Shown: positions 47,859 to 56,187, counted from the first letter of the stretch. The stretch is 64,000 nucleotides of DNA from an uncultured Bacteroidales bacterium (GCA_963753055.1 CAVWAP010000002.1:257411-321410); one strand, 5' to 3'. Program-made: numbers and translations. The notes: a model not told the origin generated them from the letters alone.

Positions 47859-47900
47859 TTAGTGATTAGTGGTTGGTGGTTGGTGGTTGGTGGTTGGTGA
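47859..47900. repeat. tandem heptamer array (ttagtga ttagtgg ttggtgg x3 ttggtga)
   Basis: Six period-7 units lying 18-59 nt upstream of the 47841 start codon (minus strand). Confidence 0.85.
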
Positions 47901-51603: not shown

Positions 51604-53697
51604 TTATGAAACTCTTTCTACGAACCACATCTCAATATCACCTTTGCCTTTGGTTTTTACTTTTCCTCTTGATGTGAATCTGAATGCCGGATCATCTTTG
51701 ATCAGCTCATAGGTGGATTGGGAAATATTTACTTTGCCGGTTTCTCCGGAGTTTTCCATGCGGGAGGCGGTATTAACGGTATCGCCCCAAATATCGTACT
51801 GGAACTTGGTGACCCCCACGATACCTGCGACAACAGGACCTGTATGGATGCCGACACGCATTTCAAAGGAAGATTTAGCTTCCAACTCACGTTGCTTTTT
51901 CATGTTGATCATACATTCCGTCATTTCAATTCCCGCCAATACCGTGTTTTTTACCGAATCAGCTGTGGGAACCGGAAGACCCCCGGCAGCCATATAAGAA
52001 TCCCCTATGGTTTTGATCTTTTCGATACCATGCTTTTTACAGATGCCATCAAATGATTCAAAACAGGTATTGATTTCTCCAACCAGATTTTCCGCACTTA
52101 GCTTTTCAGATATTTGTGTAAACTCCTTGAAATCGGTGAATAGAATGGATACCTTTTCAAAATTCCTTGCTTTGGCTTTACCTTTCTCCTTTAGTTCTTC
52201 GGCGATCTCTGCTGGTAAAATATTCAACAAGAGCTTGTCTGACCGCTCCTTTTCGTGTTCAATTGCTTTCTTGGCTCTTCTTACAAATACTATACGCATA
52301 TATAATCCGATTGCACCAATTAGCAAAATAATAGCTGATAATATGGAGATATTTCTGGTCCTGTTCTTCTTCCTTACTTCTGCTTCATGAGCCATCTGAA
52401 CCTTAAGTTTGTCTTCTTCCTGAATGAGACTGTCTGCCAATGCCTGCTTCTCAAATTCCATCTCCTGAAGCTTTTTAGCAGTTTCTTCAGCCTGGAGACT
52501 ACTATCTAACTTCACGATGCGTTCATGGTACACCAGGGCTGTATCGTTATTCCCCAAAGCTTTAAAAGCATTATAAAGGCATTGACAAGCATTCCTCTGC
52601 TCCAAAAGAATATTAATCTCTTCTGATGTCTGTAAGCTTCTTTTACACCAGATAATGGCTTGTCCATGATCATCTTGCTTATTATATGCTCTGCCTATGT
52701 TGGCCAGGATACCAGCCAATCCTCTTTTGTCGGAAATTTCCTCATAGATCTTGAAGCATTTCTGGTAATAATCCATGGCTTTGGCATAGTCACCCTGATA
52801 CATATAAATTTCTCCTATATTGTTGAATGTGCTGGCCATTCCTTTTCTATCGGAGATTTCCTCTTGTATCTTTAAACTTTTAAGGTGATAGTCAAGTGCC
52901 TTAGAATAGTTTTTTGTATTCATATAAATGAGGCCGATGTTGGATGAGATACCAGCCGATGCTTTTAGGTCAGAGATGTCCTCACATATTTTCAGGCTAC
53001 GCTGAAAACGTTCCAGTGCTTCTGGATAATCACCTCGTCTCATATAAATAAGTCCGATATTATTTAAGATTTGAGCAATTCCCCTGCTATCCAAGAATTC
53101 CTCTTTGATCCTCAGGCTTTGTTGGAATTTTTCCAGTGCCCTTGGATAATTGCCCTGATTCATGTAAATGAGTCCGATATTGTTCATGGAACCAGCCATT
53201 CCGCTTTTATCTGAGAGGCTCTTCTTGATCGTTAAACTTCTCTGGTGATATTCCAGGGCTTTGGGGAAGTTGCCTTGATTTGAATAAATAACGCCGATAT
53301 TGTTTAAAGTTTTGGACATTCCTTTATTATCGCAAATTCCTTCTGAAATCAGTAAACTTCGCTGGTAATAATCCAGTGCATCATCATATTCGCCTCTGAC
53401 AAGGTATGATCCCCCCTGAATGCTTAACGCACTTGTCATTTCTTTTTTGAAACCCTTTTCGCTGGCAAAGTCATACATCAGTTGCGCAAAATAATAGGCA
53501 CTATCTGGTTGTGAGTACAGGTATCCATATCTGGCAAAATCCTGTATGGCTTGAACCCTGCTGGAGTCTGAAGCGGTTTCATCATTCCAGACACTCCAGA
53601 GTGAGTCGAGGTTTGTCTGGGCCTGGGTTACAAGCGCAGAAAGCATGAAGAGAAAAAAAATCAGACTCTTTATTGTTTTACATACGATAAAATTCAT
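51604..53697 (-). CDS. TPR-repeat, membrane-anchored class III adenylate/guanylate cyclase
   Basis: Signal sequence, about 8 TPR units, one TM helix, then the cyclase core ILFTDFKEFT, KTIGDSYMAAGG, RVGIHTGPVVAGIVG and YDIWGDTVNTASRMES. Confidence 0.85.
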   Translation of the reverse strand: MNFIVCKTIKSLIFFLFMLSALVTQAQTNLDSLWSVWNDETASDSSRVQAIQDFARYGYLYSQPDSAYYFAQLMYDFASEKGFKKEMTSALSIQGGSYLVRGEYDDALDYYQRSLLISEGICDNKGMSKTLNNIGVIYSNQGNFPKALEYHQRSLTIKKSLSDKSGMAGSMNNIGLIYMNQGNYPRALEKFQQSLRIKEEFLDSRGIAQILNNIGLIYMRRGDYPEALERFQRSLKICEDISDLKASAGISSNIGLIYMNTKNYSKALDYHLKSLKIQEEISDRKGMASTFNNIGEIYMYQGDYAKAMDYYQKCFKIYEEISDKRGLAGILANIGRAYNKQDDHGQAIIWCKRSLQTSEEINILLEQRNACQCLYNAFKALGNNDTALVYHERIVKLDSSLQAEETAKKLQEMEFEKQALADSLIQEEDKLKVQMAHEAEVRKKNRTRNISILSAIILLIGAIGLYMRIVFVRRAKKAIEHEKERSDKLLLNILPAEIAEELKEKGKAKARNFEKVSILFTDFKEFTQISEKLSAENLVGEINTCFESFDGICKKHGIEKIKTIGDSYMAAGGLPVPTADSVKNTVLAGIEMTECMINMKKQRELEAKSSFEMRVGIHTGPVVAGIVGVTKFQYDIWGDTVNTASRMENSGETGKVNISQSTYELIKDDPAFRFTSRGKVKTKGKGDIEMWFVERVS

Positions 53698-53730
53698 GAT
53701 AGGATAAAGTTATGGTTTTTACATGATAAA

Positions 53731-53758
53731 TTGACAGTTGACAGTTGACAATTGACAA
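53731..53758. repeat. tandem heptamer array (ttgacag x2, ttgacaa x2)
   Basis: Four period-7 units lying 34-61 nt upstream of the cyclase start codon (minus strand). Confidence 0.8.
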
Positions 53759-53831
53759 TAATATGGCGCTATGTGTTATCTATGGGTATTCTATGTGTAT
53801 TCTAAGTTAAAGTCAAGTATTTTTTAGTTTT

Positions 53832-54824
53832 TCAAGCTGCATATTGTGCAATGGAAACATATGGAGTTCCTCTGGTTATTGTTGCAAAAACTCTTCCAAT
53901 TAATTTATTTCTCACGTTATTGATAACAATTTTCTTATGCTTTCCTTCATCTATCTTCTTTTTGAAGTATTGCCGTATTTCCGGGTCATGGTTGATTGCA
54001 GCCAATGCTGCGTTTGTAAGCAGTGCTTTAATCGTTTTATTAGCGTAATGACTGATCCTGGTTTGACCATGTATGCTTGTCCCTGAACTATGCTCAAAAG
54101 GAGCTGAACCCACATAGCAAGCAAACTTTCTTGCATTATCAAAATCTTCAAAGCAATTTGTATAAACAATCATATATGCCGCCGTAATCATCCCAATACC
54201 TTTCACCGAAGTTGCTAATTGATACTGATGTTTGATTTTATGATGTTGATCTATTTGCTGGATGATTTCATTTTCTATTTCTTGTATTTGTTTGGTATAA
54301 ACCCGGATCATTTTTTGTTGGTTTTTGATCAACACATCACTATTGCATAGCCCTAAATACTCTTTGGATTGCTCCATCGATGTTTTAAAGCTGGCTCGAT
54401 TCCTGGCTAACCTGGATCTATAAGAGAGCAAATACTTTAGCCTGACCAATTGTTTTGATCCCAAGGTGGTCATTCTTAACTTATCCTTGTGCAAAAAGGC
54501 ATATTCAGCAAGTCGGAAAGCATCAATCTGATCGTTCTTTCCCCTTTGTATGCCCAGAGATCTTTTTACCTGCAACCCACTAACCTTGGTATAATGTAAT
54601 CCTTTATCCTCACAAAACAATTGCAGCGGGAGATCATACATGCCAGTATGTTCAAAGCAAATGACTAAATCTTGTAAATCTTCCAGGTTTCTTTCCAACC
54701 AGATGATCATTTTCTTTAAACCTTTACTGTTGTTATCAAAAACTTCCTTGGTTCCCTTCCCATAAATACAAGCATCCAGTTTAGCTTTTGAAACATCAAT
54801 TCCTAAAAAAGTTCTTTTTTTCAT
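53832..54824 (-). CDS. IS110 family transposase (DEDD recombinase)
   Basis: GIDVSKAKLD and EHTGMYD N-terminal motifs. C-terminal SVKGIGMITAAYMIVYT....FACYVGSAPFEHSSG domain. Confidence 0.9.
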   Translation of the reverse strand: MKKRTFLGIDVSKAKLDACIYGKGTKEVFDNNSKGLKKMIIWLERNLEDLQDLVICFEHTGMYDLPLQLFCEDKGLHYTKVSGLQVKRSLGIQRGKNDQIDAFRLAEYAFLHKDKLRMTTLGSKQLVRLKYLLSYRSRLARNRASFKTSMEQSKEYLGLCNSDVLIKNQQKMIRVYTKQIQEIENEIIQQIDQHHKIKHQYQLATSVKGIGMITAAYMIVYTNCFEDFDNARKFACYVGSAPFEHSSGTSIHGQTRISHYANKTIKALLTNAALAAINHDPEIRQYFKKKIDEGKHKKIVINNVRNKLIGRVFATITRGTPYVSIAQYAA

Positions 54825-54851
54825 AACTTTGAGTGACTTTGTTTTTAAAAT

Positions 54852-54990
54852 AGTTGCATTAACTAAAACCTTTATTGGACCTTAAGTCCAAGATTCTAAC
54901 AAGTTCTTGCAACTGTGAATGGAAGAATGGGGACTAAAACGCATAATAGACCATCTGCCTTGCTCTATGCTTAGTTCACCCCATTCTTTC
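54852..54990 (-). ncRNA. candidate IS110 bridge/seek RNA (two stem-loops with internal loops)
   Basis: SL-A, 54922-54990: outer stem GAAGAATGGGG/CCCCATTCTT(T)C and inner stem GCATAGA/TCTAT(TA)TGC. SL-B, 54852-54914: outer stem AGTTGCA/TGCAACT and apical TTGGA..TCCAA. Folding was done by eye only. Confidence 0.45.
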
Positions 54991-55070
54991 TTTTTTCAAC
55001 AAAGCCAAAGATAACTTCAAATGAAAAAGGCTAAACTAAAGGTTTTCTATGCGTCTCTATGATGCTGGAT

Positions 55071-55119
55071 GGAACATGGAACATGGAACATGGTACATTG
55101 AACATTGAACATGGTACAT
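55071..55119. repeat. tandem heptamer array (ggaacat x3, ggtacat, tgaacat x2, ggtacat)
   Basis: Seven period-7 units. Confidence 0.85.
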
Positions 55120-55287
55120 CAAAAAACTGATCACAGGTCACTTTATTGAATGACTGGAATATGAAGTATATTTGAAGACTAGTTAAAATATCTACTAATT
55201 ATTACCTTATCATGAAAGTAATATTCGGTGCATTTTTAATTCAAATATTGTTTCTAAGCGTCAGTTGTGGCCAGGTAGAGACTAAGC

Positions 55288-56187
55288 ATGAAGAGGAAGG
55301 TGAAAGAGAGCATGGTGTATGATGAGCCGGTGTTTCGGCCCCCCAGTGAAGCGTACTCGCTGATCCTGCAGCCTACAGTTGGATGCTCCTGGAACCGCTG
55401 TGCTTTTTGCGAAATGTATTCCACCAAGAAATTCCGCATCCGTGAAATAAGTGAGCTTAAGAGAGAGATAAATGAGATCAGTTCGGTACATCCTGATATT
55501 AGAAAGGTGTTCCTTGCTGATGGTGATGCACTGGTTTTGCAACATGATTACCTTTTGGAATTATTGACAGAGCTGAATAAGTCTTTTACTAAACTTACAC
55601 GGGTATCAGCCTACGCCCTGCCAAAGGATATTCTGGCCAAAACGGATGAAGAATTATCCTCTCTTTGCAAGGCAGGGTTGAAGCTAATCTATGTAGGCAT
55701 TGAATCAGGGGATGATGAGGTCCTGCAGATGGTGAGCAAGAATGAAACAGCTGCAAGTACCGTTGAAGGCCTGCTCAAAGCAAAAAATGCCGGAATTAAA
55801 CTTTCGGTGATGATATTGAATGGCCTTGGCGGGAAATCTTTCAGCCGGCAACATGCTGAAAATTCAGCTCAGGTAATCAATATGATTCAGCCTGAATACT
55901 TGTCTACACTGGTATTAAGCTATCCTCGTGGTATTGACCACTTTAAAAAACGCTTTAAGGGAAGTTTTGATCCATGTGATATCAGAGACCTGCTGCAGGA
56001 GCTGATGCTATTCATCAATACCCTGGCCCTGGACCAAACAGTATTCCGAAGCGATCACGCATCGAATTATTTAGTGCTGAAAGGGATCCTCGGTCGCGAC
56101 AAGATGCGGATACTGTCTGAACTGAAAGAAGCACTTGCCAACCCTGATTCGGCCGACCTGAGGCCTGAATGGTTGAGGGGGTTATAA
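55288..56187 (+). CDS. radical SAM domain protein with CX4CX2C cluster motif
   Basis: FRPPSEAYSLILQPTVGCSWNRCAFCEMY, then the GDAL and IESGDDEVL motifs typical of the radical SAM core. The start could be M1 or M9. Confidence 0.8.
   Translation: MKRKVKESMVYDEPVFRPPSEAYSLILQPTVGCSWNRCAFCEMYSTKKFRIREISELKREINEISSVHPDIRKVFLADGDALVLQHDYLLELLTELNKSFTKLTRVSAYALPKDILAKTDEELSSLCKAGLKLIYVGIESGDDEVLQMVSKNETAASTVEGLLKAKNAGIKLSVMILNGLGGKSFSRQHAENSAQVINMIQPEYLSTLVLSYPRGIDHFKKRFKGSFDPCDIRDLLQELMLFINTLALDQTVFRSDHASNYLVLKGILGRDKMRILSELKEALANPDSADLRPEWLRGL

What the first reader, a model, noticed from the sequence alone, without database searches (positions are those of the whole stretch)
54825..55062. IS110-family element with a two-stem-loop non-coding left end: candidate bridge (seek) RNA sharing a CATAG core with both element boundaries
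About 240 nt of non-coding DNA lie between the transposase ATG (54824, minus strand) and the point where host-type heptamer repeats resume (55071).

Read on the minus strand, this region folds by eye into two adjacent stem-loops, each with large internal loops:
- SL-A (54922-54990): outer stem GAAGAATGGGG/CCCCATTCTT(T)C and inner stem GCATAGA/TCTAT(TA)TGC.
- SL-B (54852-54914): outer stem AGTTGCA/TGCAACT and an apical TTGGA..TCCAA hairpin.

SL-A carries GCATAGA. The same CATAG/CTATG core recurs twice at the right boundary (55047-55061) and three times at the left boundary (53769-53795).

IS110/IS1111 recombinases are known to be programmed by a structured RNA encoded in a non-coding end. That RNA has one target-binding loop and one donor-binding loop. 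The layout here fits that model, and the loop sequences would predict the insertion specificity of this uncharacterised Bacteroidota element.
Basis: partly seen in the sequence, partly recalled or inferred. Interest (0 to 1): 0.7.

Follow-up and report, generated by a model that had tools for sequence, protein, structure and literature searches.

The report
Bridge RNA of a Bacteroidota IS110 element
The non-coding stretch upstream of this insertion-sequence transposase encodes a typical two-loop "bridge" guide RNA, one loop matching the element's own ends and the other the CATAG repeat array it sits in, so it is a real but expected feature of this transposon family.

Summary

- **Element.** Window 53799-55041 (minus strand) is a 1,243-bp IS110-group element. 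It has a DEDD/Ser recombinase, a 217-nt left end and a 33-nt right end, and the dinucleotide AC flanks it on both sides.
- **RNA.** Positions 54989-54851 (-) encode a ~140-nt RNA with two internal-loop stem-loops. A covariance model built only from relatives whose transposases are at most 57% identical hits it at 117.8 bits (E 3e-27). The stems covary strongly.
- **Donor loop (SL-B).** It is conserved. Its 5' side, UUAGAAU, equals the last 7 nt of the element. Its 3' side, UAAAGGU, is the reverse complement of AC+CTTTA at the element's start.
- **Target loop (SL-A).** It is hypervariable across relatives and tracks their flanks (LT 5.5/9 vs 2.6 permuted; RT 3.9/5 vs 1.5; 0/10,000 each).
- **This copy.** The guides GCAUAGAG and UAUGCGU (reverse complement ACGCATA) match the host array of 10-11-nt NCATAGNNNAC units around the element.

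Corrections:
- CATAG is guide/target sequence. The crossover core is AC.
- The "inner stem" GCATAGA/TCTAT..TGC is the two target guides pairing with each other.
- Positions 55042-55070 are host DNA.

Unresolved: this copy's left flank matches the guide 1-2 nt out of register.

This is a new member of a known kind.

The parts
53799..55041 (-). IS110-group insertion sequence, 1,243 bp: CTTTAGTTTAGCC...AACTTAGAAT. Left end (LE) 217 nt (55041-54825), right end (RE) 33 nt (53831-53799).
   Evidence: Six metagenome contigs carry the identical transposase. L020 and L021 carry the same block in different flanks. The family-wide junction rule LT-AC-CTTTAG...TTAGAAT-AC-RT holds.
55042..55043 (-). Left copy of the core dinucleotide AC (LT-core-RD junction).
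   Evidence: By alignment with 22 of 25 non-redundant relatives that have AC here, with the second base C always kept. In IS621 the second core base is likewise the invariant one (PMC11208158).
53797..53798 (-). Right copy of the core dinucleotide AC (LD-core-RT junction).
53832..54824 (-). Recombinase/transposase gene, 330 aa (RuvC-like DEDD domain plus Tnp domain with catalytic Ser).
   Evidence: Pfam PF01548 and PF02371. phmmer against PDB gives ISCro4 9t56 at E 1.7e-23 and IS621 8wt6 at E 4.5e-22. D10, E58, D98, D101, S247 and G248 are invariant in 55 homologs. The ISCro4 alignment shows D/E/D/D/S-G residues at the matching positions.
54851..54989 (-). Bridge RNA core (target-binding stem-loop plus donor-binding stem-loop), about 139 nt. 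The full transcript is probably about 175 nt, starting downstream of the LE -7 box.
   Evidence: CM R2, built without this sequence, scores 117.8 bits, E 3e-27. nhmmer from this sequence finds the homologous segment upstream of the transposase gene in 67 of 105 loci. CM R1 finds it in about 91 of 99 loci.
54923..54988 (-). SL-A, the target-binding loop (TBL). It comprises the outer stem 54988-54979/54932-54923, the conserved loop UGAACU 54978-54973, the inner hairpin 54961-54946, and the conserved UUUAGU 54938-54933.
   Evidence: The 10-bp outer stem has 8 pairs with compensatory change and 94.8% of cells paired. The loop segments are hypervariable.
54962..54972 (-). Left target guide (LTG): AAGCAUAGAGC.
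   Evidence: The homologous columns match the 11 nt ending in the core at 8-11/11 in most relatives. Here GCAUAGA(G) matches the flank units GCATAGA (55052-55046) and TCATAGAG (55062-55055), but 2 nt and 1 nt out of register respectively.
54939..54945 (-). Right target guide (RTG): UAUGCGU, the reverse complement of AC-GCATA.
   Evidence: The right junction AC-ACATA matches 6/7 in register. The unoccupied site AC-GCATA at 55054-55048 matches 7/7.
54853..54913 (-). SL-B, the donor-binding loop (DBL). It comprises the outer stem GUUGCA/UGCAAC, a second helix AAC/GUU, and the inner hairpin 54889-54877.
   Evidence: Helices 3-5 are 86-94% paired, and 11 of 13 pairs show compensatory change. The loop sequences are conserved family-wide.
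54890..54899 (-). Left donor guide (LDG): UUAGAAUCUU.
   Evidence: UUAGAAU equals the last 7 nt of the element (TTAGAAT, 53805-53799). It is conserved in nearly all relatives, together with their right ends.
54865..54874 (-). Right donor guide (RDG): UAAAGGUUUU.
   Evidence: UAAAGGU is the reverse complement of AC+CTTTA (core plus the first 5 nt of the LE, 55043-55037), a 7/7 match. RDG and LE covary in L047 (CTGTTA) and L057 (CGGTTA).
55031..55038 (-). -7-like box TAGTTTAG in the LE (5/6 of TAnnTTTG).
   Evidence: 18 of 25 non-redundant relatives have this box together with the RE TTG motif, at a fixed 20-nt spacing across the RE-AC-LE junction.
53814..53817 (-). -33-like CTTG (within TTGACT) in the RE, 15 nt from the RE end.
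55044..55062 (-). Host array units to the left of the element: TCATAGAGAC | GCATAGAAA(AC). This includes an intact, unoccupied target-like site CATAGAG-AC-GCATAG (55061-55047).
   Evidence: (unique in the window at 0 mismatches).
53765..53796 (-). Host array units to the right of the element: ACATAGAATAC | CCATAGATAAC | ACATAGCGCC.
   Evidence: (TRF period 11). The number of units differs between copies: window 3, L021 2, L022 2, L020 1.

Best explanation
The non-coding left end encodes an IS110-group bridge RNA, and the element works like IS621.

- **Donor recognition.** The recombinase (53832-54824, minus strand) binds an RNA of about 140-175 nt. The second internal loop of this RNA (SL-B, the donor-binding loop) pairs with the element's own joined ends, TTAGAAT-AC-CTTTA.
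- **Target recognition.** The first internal loop (SL-A, the target-binding loop) pairs with the target. [quoted passage not shown] Its 3' side (RTG, UAUGCGU) reads the top strand of AC-GCATA.
- **Crossover.** Recombination occurs at the AC core, which ends up on both sides of the inserted element.
- **Natural target.** The target is a host tandem array of 10-11-nt NCATAGNNNAC units. Both half-sites therefore contain CATAG. The two guides are mutually complementary for that reason, and they look like an 'inner stem' in a single-sequence fold.
- **Expression.** A Bacteroidota-type promoter is probably assembled only in the excised circle, from the -33 TTG in the right end and the -7 TAnnTTTG-like box in the left end.

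Shown here: homology of the recombinase, the ends, the conserved and covarying RNA structure, donor complementarity, and family-wide guide/flank covariation.

Inferred: transcription, RNA-protein binding, the circle intermediate, the promoter, and the actual chemistry.
For: - **Protein.** The transposase carries PF01548 and PF02371. It is homologous to the solved bridge recombinases ISCro4 (E 1.7e-23) and IS621 (E 4.5e-22), with DEDD and Ser-Gly conserved.
- **Architecture.** The left end is long (217 nt) and the right end short (33 nt), as in the IS110 group (PMC11208160).
- **RNA conservation.** The RNA segment is about 70% identical at the DNA level in elements whose proteins are only 40-57% identical.
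- **Independent model.** CM R2, built without the window, hits at 117.8 bits, E 3e-27.
- **Covariation.** On alignment A2, 93.5% of cells are paired versus 77.8% shuffled, and 158 cells change on both sides versus 40.6 shuffled; slid controls pair at most 57%. On alignment A3, 24 of 28 pairs have compensatory change and 0/500 shuffles reach the observed value. An invariant U-G pair (46/46 sequences) fits an RNA of the transposase-sense strand.
- **Loop conservation pattern.** Loop 1 is variable and loop 2 conserved, as reported for IS621 relatives.
- **Donor match.** LDG UUAGAAU equals the right-end terminus 7/7. RDG UAAAGGU is the reverse complement of AC-CTTTA 7/7. RDG and LE covary in L047 and L057.
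- **Target match, family level.** LTG columns match the left flank at a mean of 5.54/9 versus 2.63 permuted. RTG columns match the right flank at 3.94/5 versus 1.50. Both are 0/10,000.
- **Closest relatives.** These are in register: L115 10/10, L111 9/9, L109 8/9, L108 8/9.
- **This element.** RT AC-ACATA matches the RTG 6/7. The flanks carry GCATAGA and TCATAGAG. A perfect composite site CATAGAG-AC-GCATA lies 11 nt upstream and is unique in the window.
- **Recent mobility.** Identical copies sit in different flanks.
Against: - In this copy the left flank (GCATAGAAA-AC) matches the LTG in register at only 4/11 (7/11 if rG-dT wobbles are allowed). The good 8/9 match is displaced by 2 nt. In copy L020 it is displaced by 1 nt.
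- All four right flanks have A where the RTG predicts G at the first RT position.
- The core positions of the LDG (CU) do not match AC.
- No empty site was recovered, so the pre-insertion target is reconstructed rather than observed.
- No expression, binding or recombination data exist.
- Rfam holds no bridge RNA family, and the published covariance models were not available.
- Many loci are related to one another, so the shuffle statistics overstate independence.
Confidence: 0.9

Rival explanations
1. The structured region is a 5' leader of the transposase mRNA. It would act as a translational or transcriptional attenuator or an antisense target that limits transposase expression, with no role in DNA recognition.
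For: It lies directly upstream of the ATG (54824). It ends with a stem followed by AUUUU. It folds better than shuffles. Many IS elements regulate transposase expression through leader structures (general knowledge).
Against: A leader model does not explain three results. The unpaired loop segments covary with the DNA outside the element. The conserved loop equals the element's two termini. The loop-1 segments are hypervariable while the stems are kept. A dual role is not excluded.
Confidence: 0.04
2. The stem-loops and CATAG repeats are DNA-level features. They would be subterminal repeats or hairpins bound by the transposase, as in IS200/IS605 or the IS1111 subterminal inverted repeats (STIRs), and the CATAG units would belong to the element ends.
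For: CATAG units sit at both boundaries and inside SL-A. The first right-flank unit ACATAGAATAC differs by 1 nt from the right end plus core, ACTTAGAATAC.
Against: The number and sequence of CATAG units differ between otherwise identical copies, ranging from 1 to 3 units on the right flank. An IS-free CATAG array exists in L020 in the opposite orientation. Relatives with different guides have different flanking repeats: CTGTGTCCT, ACAGAGG and CACAAnTT. An invariant U-G pair and other G-U pairs support a strand-specific RNA rather than duplex DNA.
Confidence: 0.03
3. The RNA is a genuine bridge RNA, but the copies seen in CATAG arrays are off-target or 'half-match' insertions guided mainly by the RT half (AC+CATA). 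Alternatively, the arrays changed by slippage after insertion. Either way, the present flanks would not report the cognate target.
For: The left-flank match is out of register by 1-2 nt in both independent left junctions, while more than 30 relatives are in register. Unit number varies between copies, which shows array instability. Half-match insertion has been reported for IS621 (bioRxiv 10.64898/2026.08.31.748434).
Against: Both flanks still carry 7-8-nt LTG matches close to the junction, and a perfect composite site lies beside the element. That would be unlikely if the arrays were not the intended target. Only two left junctions are available.
Confidence: 0.3

Closest known systems
IS621 (E. 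coli) bridge RNA and recombinase (Durrant et al. 2024, PMC11208160; Hiraizumi et al. 2024, PMC11208158)
   Same: - DEDD RuvC-like domain plus Ser Tnp domain recombinase (E 4.5e-22 to 8wt6).
- The RNA is encoded in a long left end upstream of the gene.
- Two internal-loop stem-loops in the order target loop, then donor loop.
[quoted passage not shown]
- Loop 1 is variable and loop 2 conserved.
- A 2-nt core in which the second base is the conserved one.
- A promoter split between the right end and the left end.
   Different: - The proteins are recognisably homologous (E 4.5e-22) but distant, and the RNA has no detectable sequence relation to any Rfam family.
- The core is AC rather than CT.
- The donor is TTAGAAT-AC-CTTTAG.
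- The promoter motifs are of the Bacteroidota -33/-7 type rather than sigma-70 -35/-10.
- No clear 5' stem-loop precedes the two loops.
- The target is a short tandem-repeat array rather than a REP element.
ISCro4 transposase (PDB 9t56)
   Same: It is the best-scoring solved structure (E 1.7e-23, residues 5-323 aligned). The catalytic D, E, D, D and S-G positions align.
   Different: It is a different host and a different element. Its RNA and target were not compared here.
IS1111-group seekRNA/bridge RNA elements (e.g. IS1111, IS4321/IS5075)
   Same: The same recombinase family and the same principle of RNA-guided target choice.
   Different: In those elements the RNA lies in a long right end downstream of the gene, and they have long subterminal inverted repeats. 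Here the RNA is in the left end and the right end is only 33 nt.
ISPpu9 / ISPpu10 (Pseudomonas putida), IS110 elements that insert into REP or conserved intergenic repeats (PMC12288879; bioRxiv 10.64898/2026.03.19.712850)
   Same: They target multicopy intergenic repeat sequences of the host.
   Different: Their targets are palindromic REP or stem-loop sequences. Here the target is a direct tandem array of 10-11-mers, and no target stem-loop requirement is evident.

Membership tests
IS110 family, IS110 group (bridge-RNA elements) | Recombinase with an N-terminal RuvC-like DEDD domain and a C-terminal Tnp domain carrying the catalytic Ser | tested here: met
   PF01548 at E 1.8e-20 and PF02371 at E 3e-21. 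PDB homologs are IS621 and ISCro4. D10, E58, D98, D101, S247 and G248 are invariant in 55 homologs, matching the IS621 roles of D11, E60, D102, D105 and S241-G242.
IS110 family, IS110 group (bridge-RNA elements) | Long non-coding left end and short right end, with the RNA encoded in the left end upstream of the gene | tested here: met
   LE 217 nt and RE 33 nt. The RNA lies at 54989-54851, just upstream of the ATG at 54824.
IS110 family, IS110 group (bridge-RNA elements) | Conserved RNA secondary structure with two internal-loop stem-loops, supported by covariation | tested here: met
   24 of 28 pairs have compensatory change, and 0/500 shuffles reach the observed value on all five measures. 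Slid controls pair 26-50% of cells versus 89.8% observed.
IS110 family, IS110 group (bridge-RNA elements) | Second loop complementary to the element's joined ends (LDG sense to the right end plus core; RDG antisense to the core plus left end) | tested here: met
   UUAGAAU equals TTAGAAT (7/7). UAAAGGU is the reverse complement of ACCTTTA (7/7). RDG/LE covariation is seen in L047 and L057. The core positions of the LDG do not match AC.
IS110 family, IS110 group (bridge-RNA elements) | First loop variable and complementary to the insertion-site flanks (LTG sense to LT plus core; RTG antisense to core plus RT) | tested here: met
   Family level: LT 5.54/9 versus 2.63 permuted, and RT 3.94/5 versus 1.50 permuted, 0/10,000 each. 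The closest relatives are in register. For this copy the result is only partial: RT is 6/7 in register, while LT has 8/9 matches displaced by 2 nt (4/11 in register).
IS110 family, IS110 group (bridge-RNA elements) | The same core dinucleotide at both junctions | tested here: met
   AC at 55043-55042 and at 53798-53797. 22 of 25 relatives have AC, and the second base C is always kept.
IS110 family, IS110 group (bridge-RNA elements) | Promoter reconstituted at the RE-LE junction of the excised circle | tested here: inconclusive
   The right end has (C/T)TTG 15 nt from its end and the left end has a TAnnTTTG-like box. The spacing is 20 nt across the junction in 18 of 25 non-redundant relatives and in this element (CTTG / TAGTTTAG). 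This is motif evidence only. That these motifs are the Bacteroidota consensus rests on my own knowledge.
IS110 family, IS110 group (bridge-RNA elements) | RNA is expressed, binds the recombinase and is required for recombination | not testable with these tools
   No transcriptome or biochemical data are available.
IS110 family, IS110 group (bridge-RNA elements) | Match to a published or curated bridge RNA covariance model | not testable with these tools
   Rfam 15 returned only two chance-level hits at E<=10 (TtnuHACA22 at E 2.3, STnc410 at E 0.24). The Durrant et al. models were not available.
IS1111 group (right-end seekRNA elements) | RNA encoded in a long right end downstream of the gene, with long subterminal inverted repeats | tested here: not met
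   The right end is 33 nt and holds no structured RNA. The RNA is in the left end.

The most novel reading that the evidence does not exclude
This Bacteroidota subfamily habitually targets short direct tandem-repeat arrays. Examples are CATAG 10-11-mers here, CTGTGTCCT 9-mers in a gut element and ACAGAGG repeats in L094. Because each repeat unit mimics both half-sites, and here also the donor's LD+core (ACTTAGAATAC vs ACATAGAATAC), the recombinase could insert or excise out of register or by half-match. The element itself could then drive gain and loss of repeat units in host intergenic arrays.
Probability: 0.15. Interest if true: 0.55.

Novelty: new member of a known kind. Interest (0 to 1): 0.35.

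Why it matters
The finding adds a well-delimited, apparently recently mobile bridge-recombinase system from Bacteroidota. Identical copies sit in different flanks across several metagenome samples.

What it provides:
- Explicit guide positions: LTG 54972-54962, RTG 54945-54939, LDG 54899-54890, RDG 54874-54865.
- A non-CT core (AC).
- A conserved donor, TTAGAAT-AC-CTTTAG.
- A promoter split across the junction that looks native to Bacteroidota.

Such parts could be useful for programmable recombination in Bacteroidota, where E. coli-derived promoters work poorly. This practical point is inference.

The finding also gives an alignment and covariance model for a family found upstream of about 90 related transposases.

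It does not change the understanding of the mechanism. Durrant et al. already predicted bridge RNAs in 85.7% of IS110-group elements.

Tried and rejected
- **Rfam scan.** A permissive scan of Rfam 15 over 53400-55500 gave only two chance-level hits, a Tetrahymena snoRNA (E 2.3) and STnc410 (E 0.24, inside the ORF). I rejected both.
- **Other copies in the window.** BLAST found none.
- **Empty site.** I looked up the exact flanking proteins: the radical SAM gene 55288-56187 and the TPR-cyclase gene 51604-53697. Each was found on one short contig that breaks at the element, so no empty site was recovered.
- **CATAG as the crossover core.** Relatives with unrelated guides all recombine at TTAGAAT-AC / AC-CTTTAG, and CATAG falls in the variable guide columns.
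- **CATAG units as part of the element.** I rejected this because unit number and sequence differ between identical copies.
- **The window's 10-nt RDG match (AAAACCTTTA).** I first read it as meaningful. The extra AA is conserved in the RDG of relatives whose flanks differ, so only 7 nt count.
- **First motif-based end finder.** The first version mislocated several ends. I replaced it with a stricter version.
- **Sigma-70 promoter scan.** Hits in the integrated element were no more frequent than in shuffles, 5 versus 5.5.

Full report
**1. The observation**

The minus-strand ORF 53832-54824 encodes a 330-aa protein with the two Pfam domains of IS110-family transposases, PF01548 and PF02371.

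The 246 nt upstream on the minus strand fold into two adjacent stem-loops. MFE is -58.4 kcal/mol, z = -2.6, and 1 of 200 shuffles folds as well.

CATAG occurs twice at 55047-55061 and three times at 53769-53795. Apart from one unrelated pair in a coding region at 63164, these are the only clustered CATAG units in the window.

**2. Ends of the element**

The identical transposase lies on six short metagenome contigs.
- L020 and L021 carry the same 1.25-kb block in different flanks, so these are independent insertions.
- 19 genome loci and 80 metagenome loci encode relatives at 39-57% identity. Further look-ups added closer relatives at 63-67% identity.
- Across these relatives the junctions follow one rule: left flank-AC-CTTTAG(A)...(C)TTAGAAT-AC-right flank.

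Applied to the window, the element is 55041-53799 (minus strand), 1,243 bp. AC lies at 55043-55042 and at 53798-53797. The left end is 217 nt and the right end 33 nt.

**3. A conserved structured RNA**

- Sequence conservation. The segment 54989-54862 is about 70% identical at the DNA level in loci whose transposases are only 41-44% identical. nhmmer with the window sequence alone finds the homologous segment just upstream of the transposase gene in 67 of 105 loci.
- Layout in a 45-sequence alignment:
  - an outer stem AGAAUGGGG/CCCCAUUCU
  - a conserved UGAACU
  - about 11 hypervariable nt
  - a short hairpin
  - about 6 hypervariable nt
  - a conserved GUAUUAGU
  - a second stem-loop whose loop sequences, UUAGAAU and UAAAGGUUUUAG, are conserved.
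- RNAalifold. It predicts 20 pairs, 16 of them with compensatory change.
- Counted pairs on A2. 93.5% of cells are paired versus 77.8% in shuffles and at most 57% when partners are slid. 158 cells change on both sides versus 40.6 in shuffles.
- Counted pairs on A3. With a hand-drawn 28-pair structure on a trimmed alignment, 24 pairs show compensatory change and 0/500 shuffles reach the observed value on every measure.
- Independent covariance model. A model built from 41 sequences, without the window and its four closest relatives, hits 54989-54851(-) full length at 117.8 bits, E 3e-27.
- Family-wide prevalence. The fuller model finds the RNA upstream of the gene in about 91 of 99 loci, about 45 of which were not used to build it. 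Most of the loci without a hit begin at or inside the transposase gene, so the RNA region is not on the contig.
- Rfam 15 has no matching family.

**4. Which loop does what**

Durrant et al. (PMC11208160) describe the layout in IS621. [quoted passage not shown] The first loop is variable and binds the target. The second is conserved and binds the donor.

*Donor loop (SL-B).*
- UUAGAAU (54899-54893) equals the last 7 nt of the element.
- UAAAGGU (54874-54868) is the reverse complement of AC+CTTTA at the left junction.
- In L047 and L057 the left end starts with CTGTTA and CGGTTA, and the RDG changes to match.

*Target loop (SL-A), family level.* I located each locus's ends using only its own donor guides. 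I then compared the variable columns with the flanks.
- The LTG columns match the 9 nt before the core at a mean of 5.54/9 versus 2.63 after permuting loci.
- The RTG columns match the 5 nt after the core at 3.94/5 versus 1.50.
- No permutation out of 10,000 reached either observed value.
- The closest relatives are clean and in register:

| Locus | Guide | Flank |
|---|---|---|
| L115 | LTG UUCCCGAUAGC | TCCCGATA-GC |
| L111 | LTG ACAAAUUAC | ACAAATT-AC |
| L109 | LTG ACAAGUUAC | ACAAGTT-TC |
| L109-L114 | RTG reverse complement ACACAAA | AC-ACAAG |

- A multicopy gut element (L078-L097) behaves the same way with core TC.

**5. This copy**

The guides are LTG AAGCAUAGAGC (54972-54962) and RTG UAUGCGU (54945-54939), whose reverse complement is ACGCATA.

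The host DNA around the element, read on the minus strand, is a tandem array:

TCATAGAGAC | GCATAGAAAAC | [element] | ACATAGAATAC | CCATAGATAAC | ACATAGCGCC

Both half-sites are copies of the same repeat unit, so the LTG (sense) and the RTG (antisense) both contain it.
- The right junction AC-ACATA matches the RTG 6/7 in register.
- The left junction is the weak point.
  - In register, GCATAGAAAAC matches the LTG at 4/11, or 7/11 if rG-dT wobbles are allowed.
  - The strong match, ACGCATAGA at 8/9, is displaced by 2 nt.
  - In L020 the flank ATCATAGAG-AC matches at 8/11 displaced by 1 nt.
- Eleven nucleotides upstream of the window's junction lies an unoccupied site, CATAGAG-AC-GCATA (55061-55048). 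It matches the RTG 7/7 and carries the same left half as the occupied L020 site. It is unique in the window.

Possible reasons for the offset, none of which I can test:
- The base pair at the foot of the inner hairpin is an A-A mismatch in this RNA, which may shift the register by one.
- The insertion may have been guided by one half-site only, as reported for IS621.
- The array may have slipped after insertion. Unit numbers differ between copies.
- The four-A run at the junction may be miscalled in the assembly.

**6. Protein**

phmmer finds ISCro4 (9t56, E 1.7e-23) and IS621 (8wt6, E 4.5e-22) as the only solved relatives. D10, E58, D98, D101 and S247-G248 are invariant in 55 homologs. In the ISCro4 alignment D, E, D, D and S-G occupy the matching positions. 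These correspond in motif and order to IS621 D11, E60, D102, D105 and S241-G242, which form the composite active site. In IS621 the second core base is nearly invariant and the first is less so. The same holds here: AC, GC, TC and CC are seen, and C is always kept.

**7. Expression (inference)**

In 18 of 25 non-redundant relatives the right end carries (C/T)TTG exactly 15 nt from its tip. The left end carries a TAnnTTTG-like box at positions 4-11. This gives a 20-nt spacing across RE-AC-LE. The window element has CTTG and TAGTTTAG.

From my own knowledge, this is the Bacteroidota primary-sigma promoter layout (-33 TTTG, -7 TAnnTTTG). It would parallel the sigma-70 promoter that IS621 rebuilds on circularisation. 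I did not test it further. In the integrated state the -33 position falls in host DNA that has no TTTG.

**8. Verdict**

- The core is AC, not CATAG.
- The inner stem is the two target guides pairing with each other.
- The left boundary is 55041.
- The RNA is the IS110-group left-end type, not the IS1111 right-end type.

The element is a new member of a known kind. Bridge RNAs were already predicted for 85.7% of IS110-group elements.

Points of modest interest:
- the AC core
- the Bacteroidota-type split promoter
- targeting of direct tandem-repeat arrays
- the unexplained register offset beside an unoccupied perfect site.

Interest 0.35.

Noticed in passing
window 55047-55061 (-): An intact, unoccupied target-like site, CATAGAG-AC-GCATAG, lies 11 nt upstream of the element's left junction. 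It matches the RTG 7/7 and has the same left half as the occupied site in L020. The element nevertheless sits at the next, poorer AC. The site is unique in the window at 0 mismatches.
   Followed up: partly
window, many sites, e.g. 55069-55119, 53729-53759, 31399-31448, 47869-47899: The host genome is rich in short intergenic tandem arrays, mostly heptamers (ATGGAAC x7.3, AATTGAC x4.4, ATTTACA x7.1, GTGGTTG x4.4). The CATAG 11-mer array that holds the element sits between two such heptamer arrays. Their function is unknown.
   Followed up: no
window 53788-53816 (-): In the integrated state, the right end's TTGACT and a TAGAAT from the first flanking CATAG unit, 17 nt apart, form an outward-facing sigma-70-like promoter match. 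It points toward the TPR/guanylate-cyclase gene (51604-53697, -). The number of such matches in the region is not above shuffles (5 vs 5.5).
   Followed up: no
window 53786-53808 (-): The right end plus core (ACTTAGAATAC) differs by one base from the adjacent host unit (ACATAGAATAC). The flank therefore carries a near-copy of the left donor half-site. L021 has the same unit. It could serve as a pseudo-donor end in excision.
   Followed up: no
L004 2686-2835 (also L006, L007, L010, L011, L017, L034, L035, L098): Mucilaginibacter relatives carry a tandem duplication of the left end. An extra copy of CTTTAGAT... plus a target-binding stem-loop sits upstream of the complete RNA. It has the same LTG but a different RTG (reverse complement ACGAAGCG vs ACGGGCC). 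The covariance model reports it as a second, weaker hit (47-54 bits).
   Followed up: partly
L002 5825-5946 (-): The covariance model hits a second time (51.6 bits), about 1.8 kb downstream of the element and on the opposite strand. I did not check whether a transposase gene lies beside it. It may be an orphan or remnant bridge RNA.
   Followed up: no
L078-L097 (human-gut and other metagenome contigs): A 1.32-kb relative is present in at least 10 different flanks at more than 99% identity. It is always inserted in 9-10-nt tandem units (CTCTGTGTCCT / CTGCGTCCT ... CCGTGGCCT / CTGTGGTGAA). Its core is TC and its guides are in register. This is a second case of tandem-array targeting.
   Followed up: partly
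L109-L114: The 65%-identical relative (P0003) targets CCACAA(A/G)TT-AC-ACAAG next to a REP-like hairpin (GCCTGCCAnATGGCAGG). In L109 and L112 an intact copy of the target lies about 40 nt upstream of the occupied one, as in the window. The LTG differs by one base between L111 (AAAUU) and L109 (AAGUU), and the flank differs with it.
   Followed up: partly
window 54922-55060 (+) and 31364-31472 (+): Both covariance models give weak hits (12-21 bits, E 0.002-0.8) on the strand antisense to the RNA and on an ATTTACA heptamer array. I judge these to be chance or a by-product of the palindromic stems.
   Followed up: no
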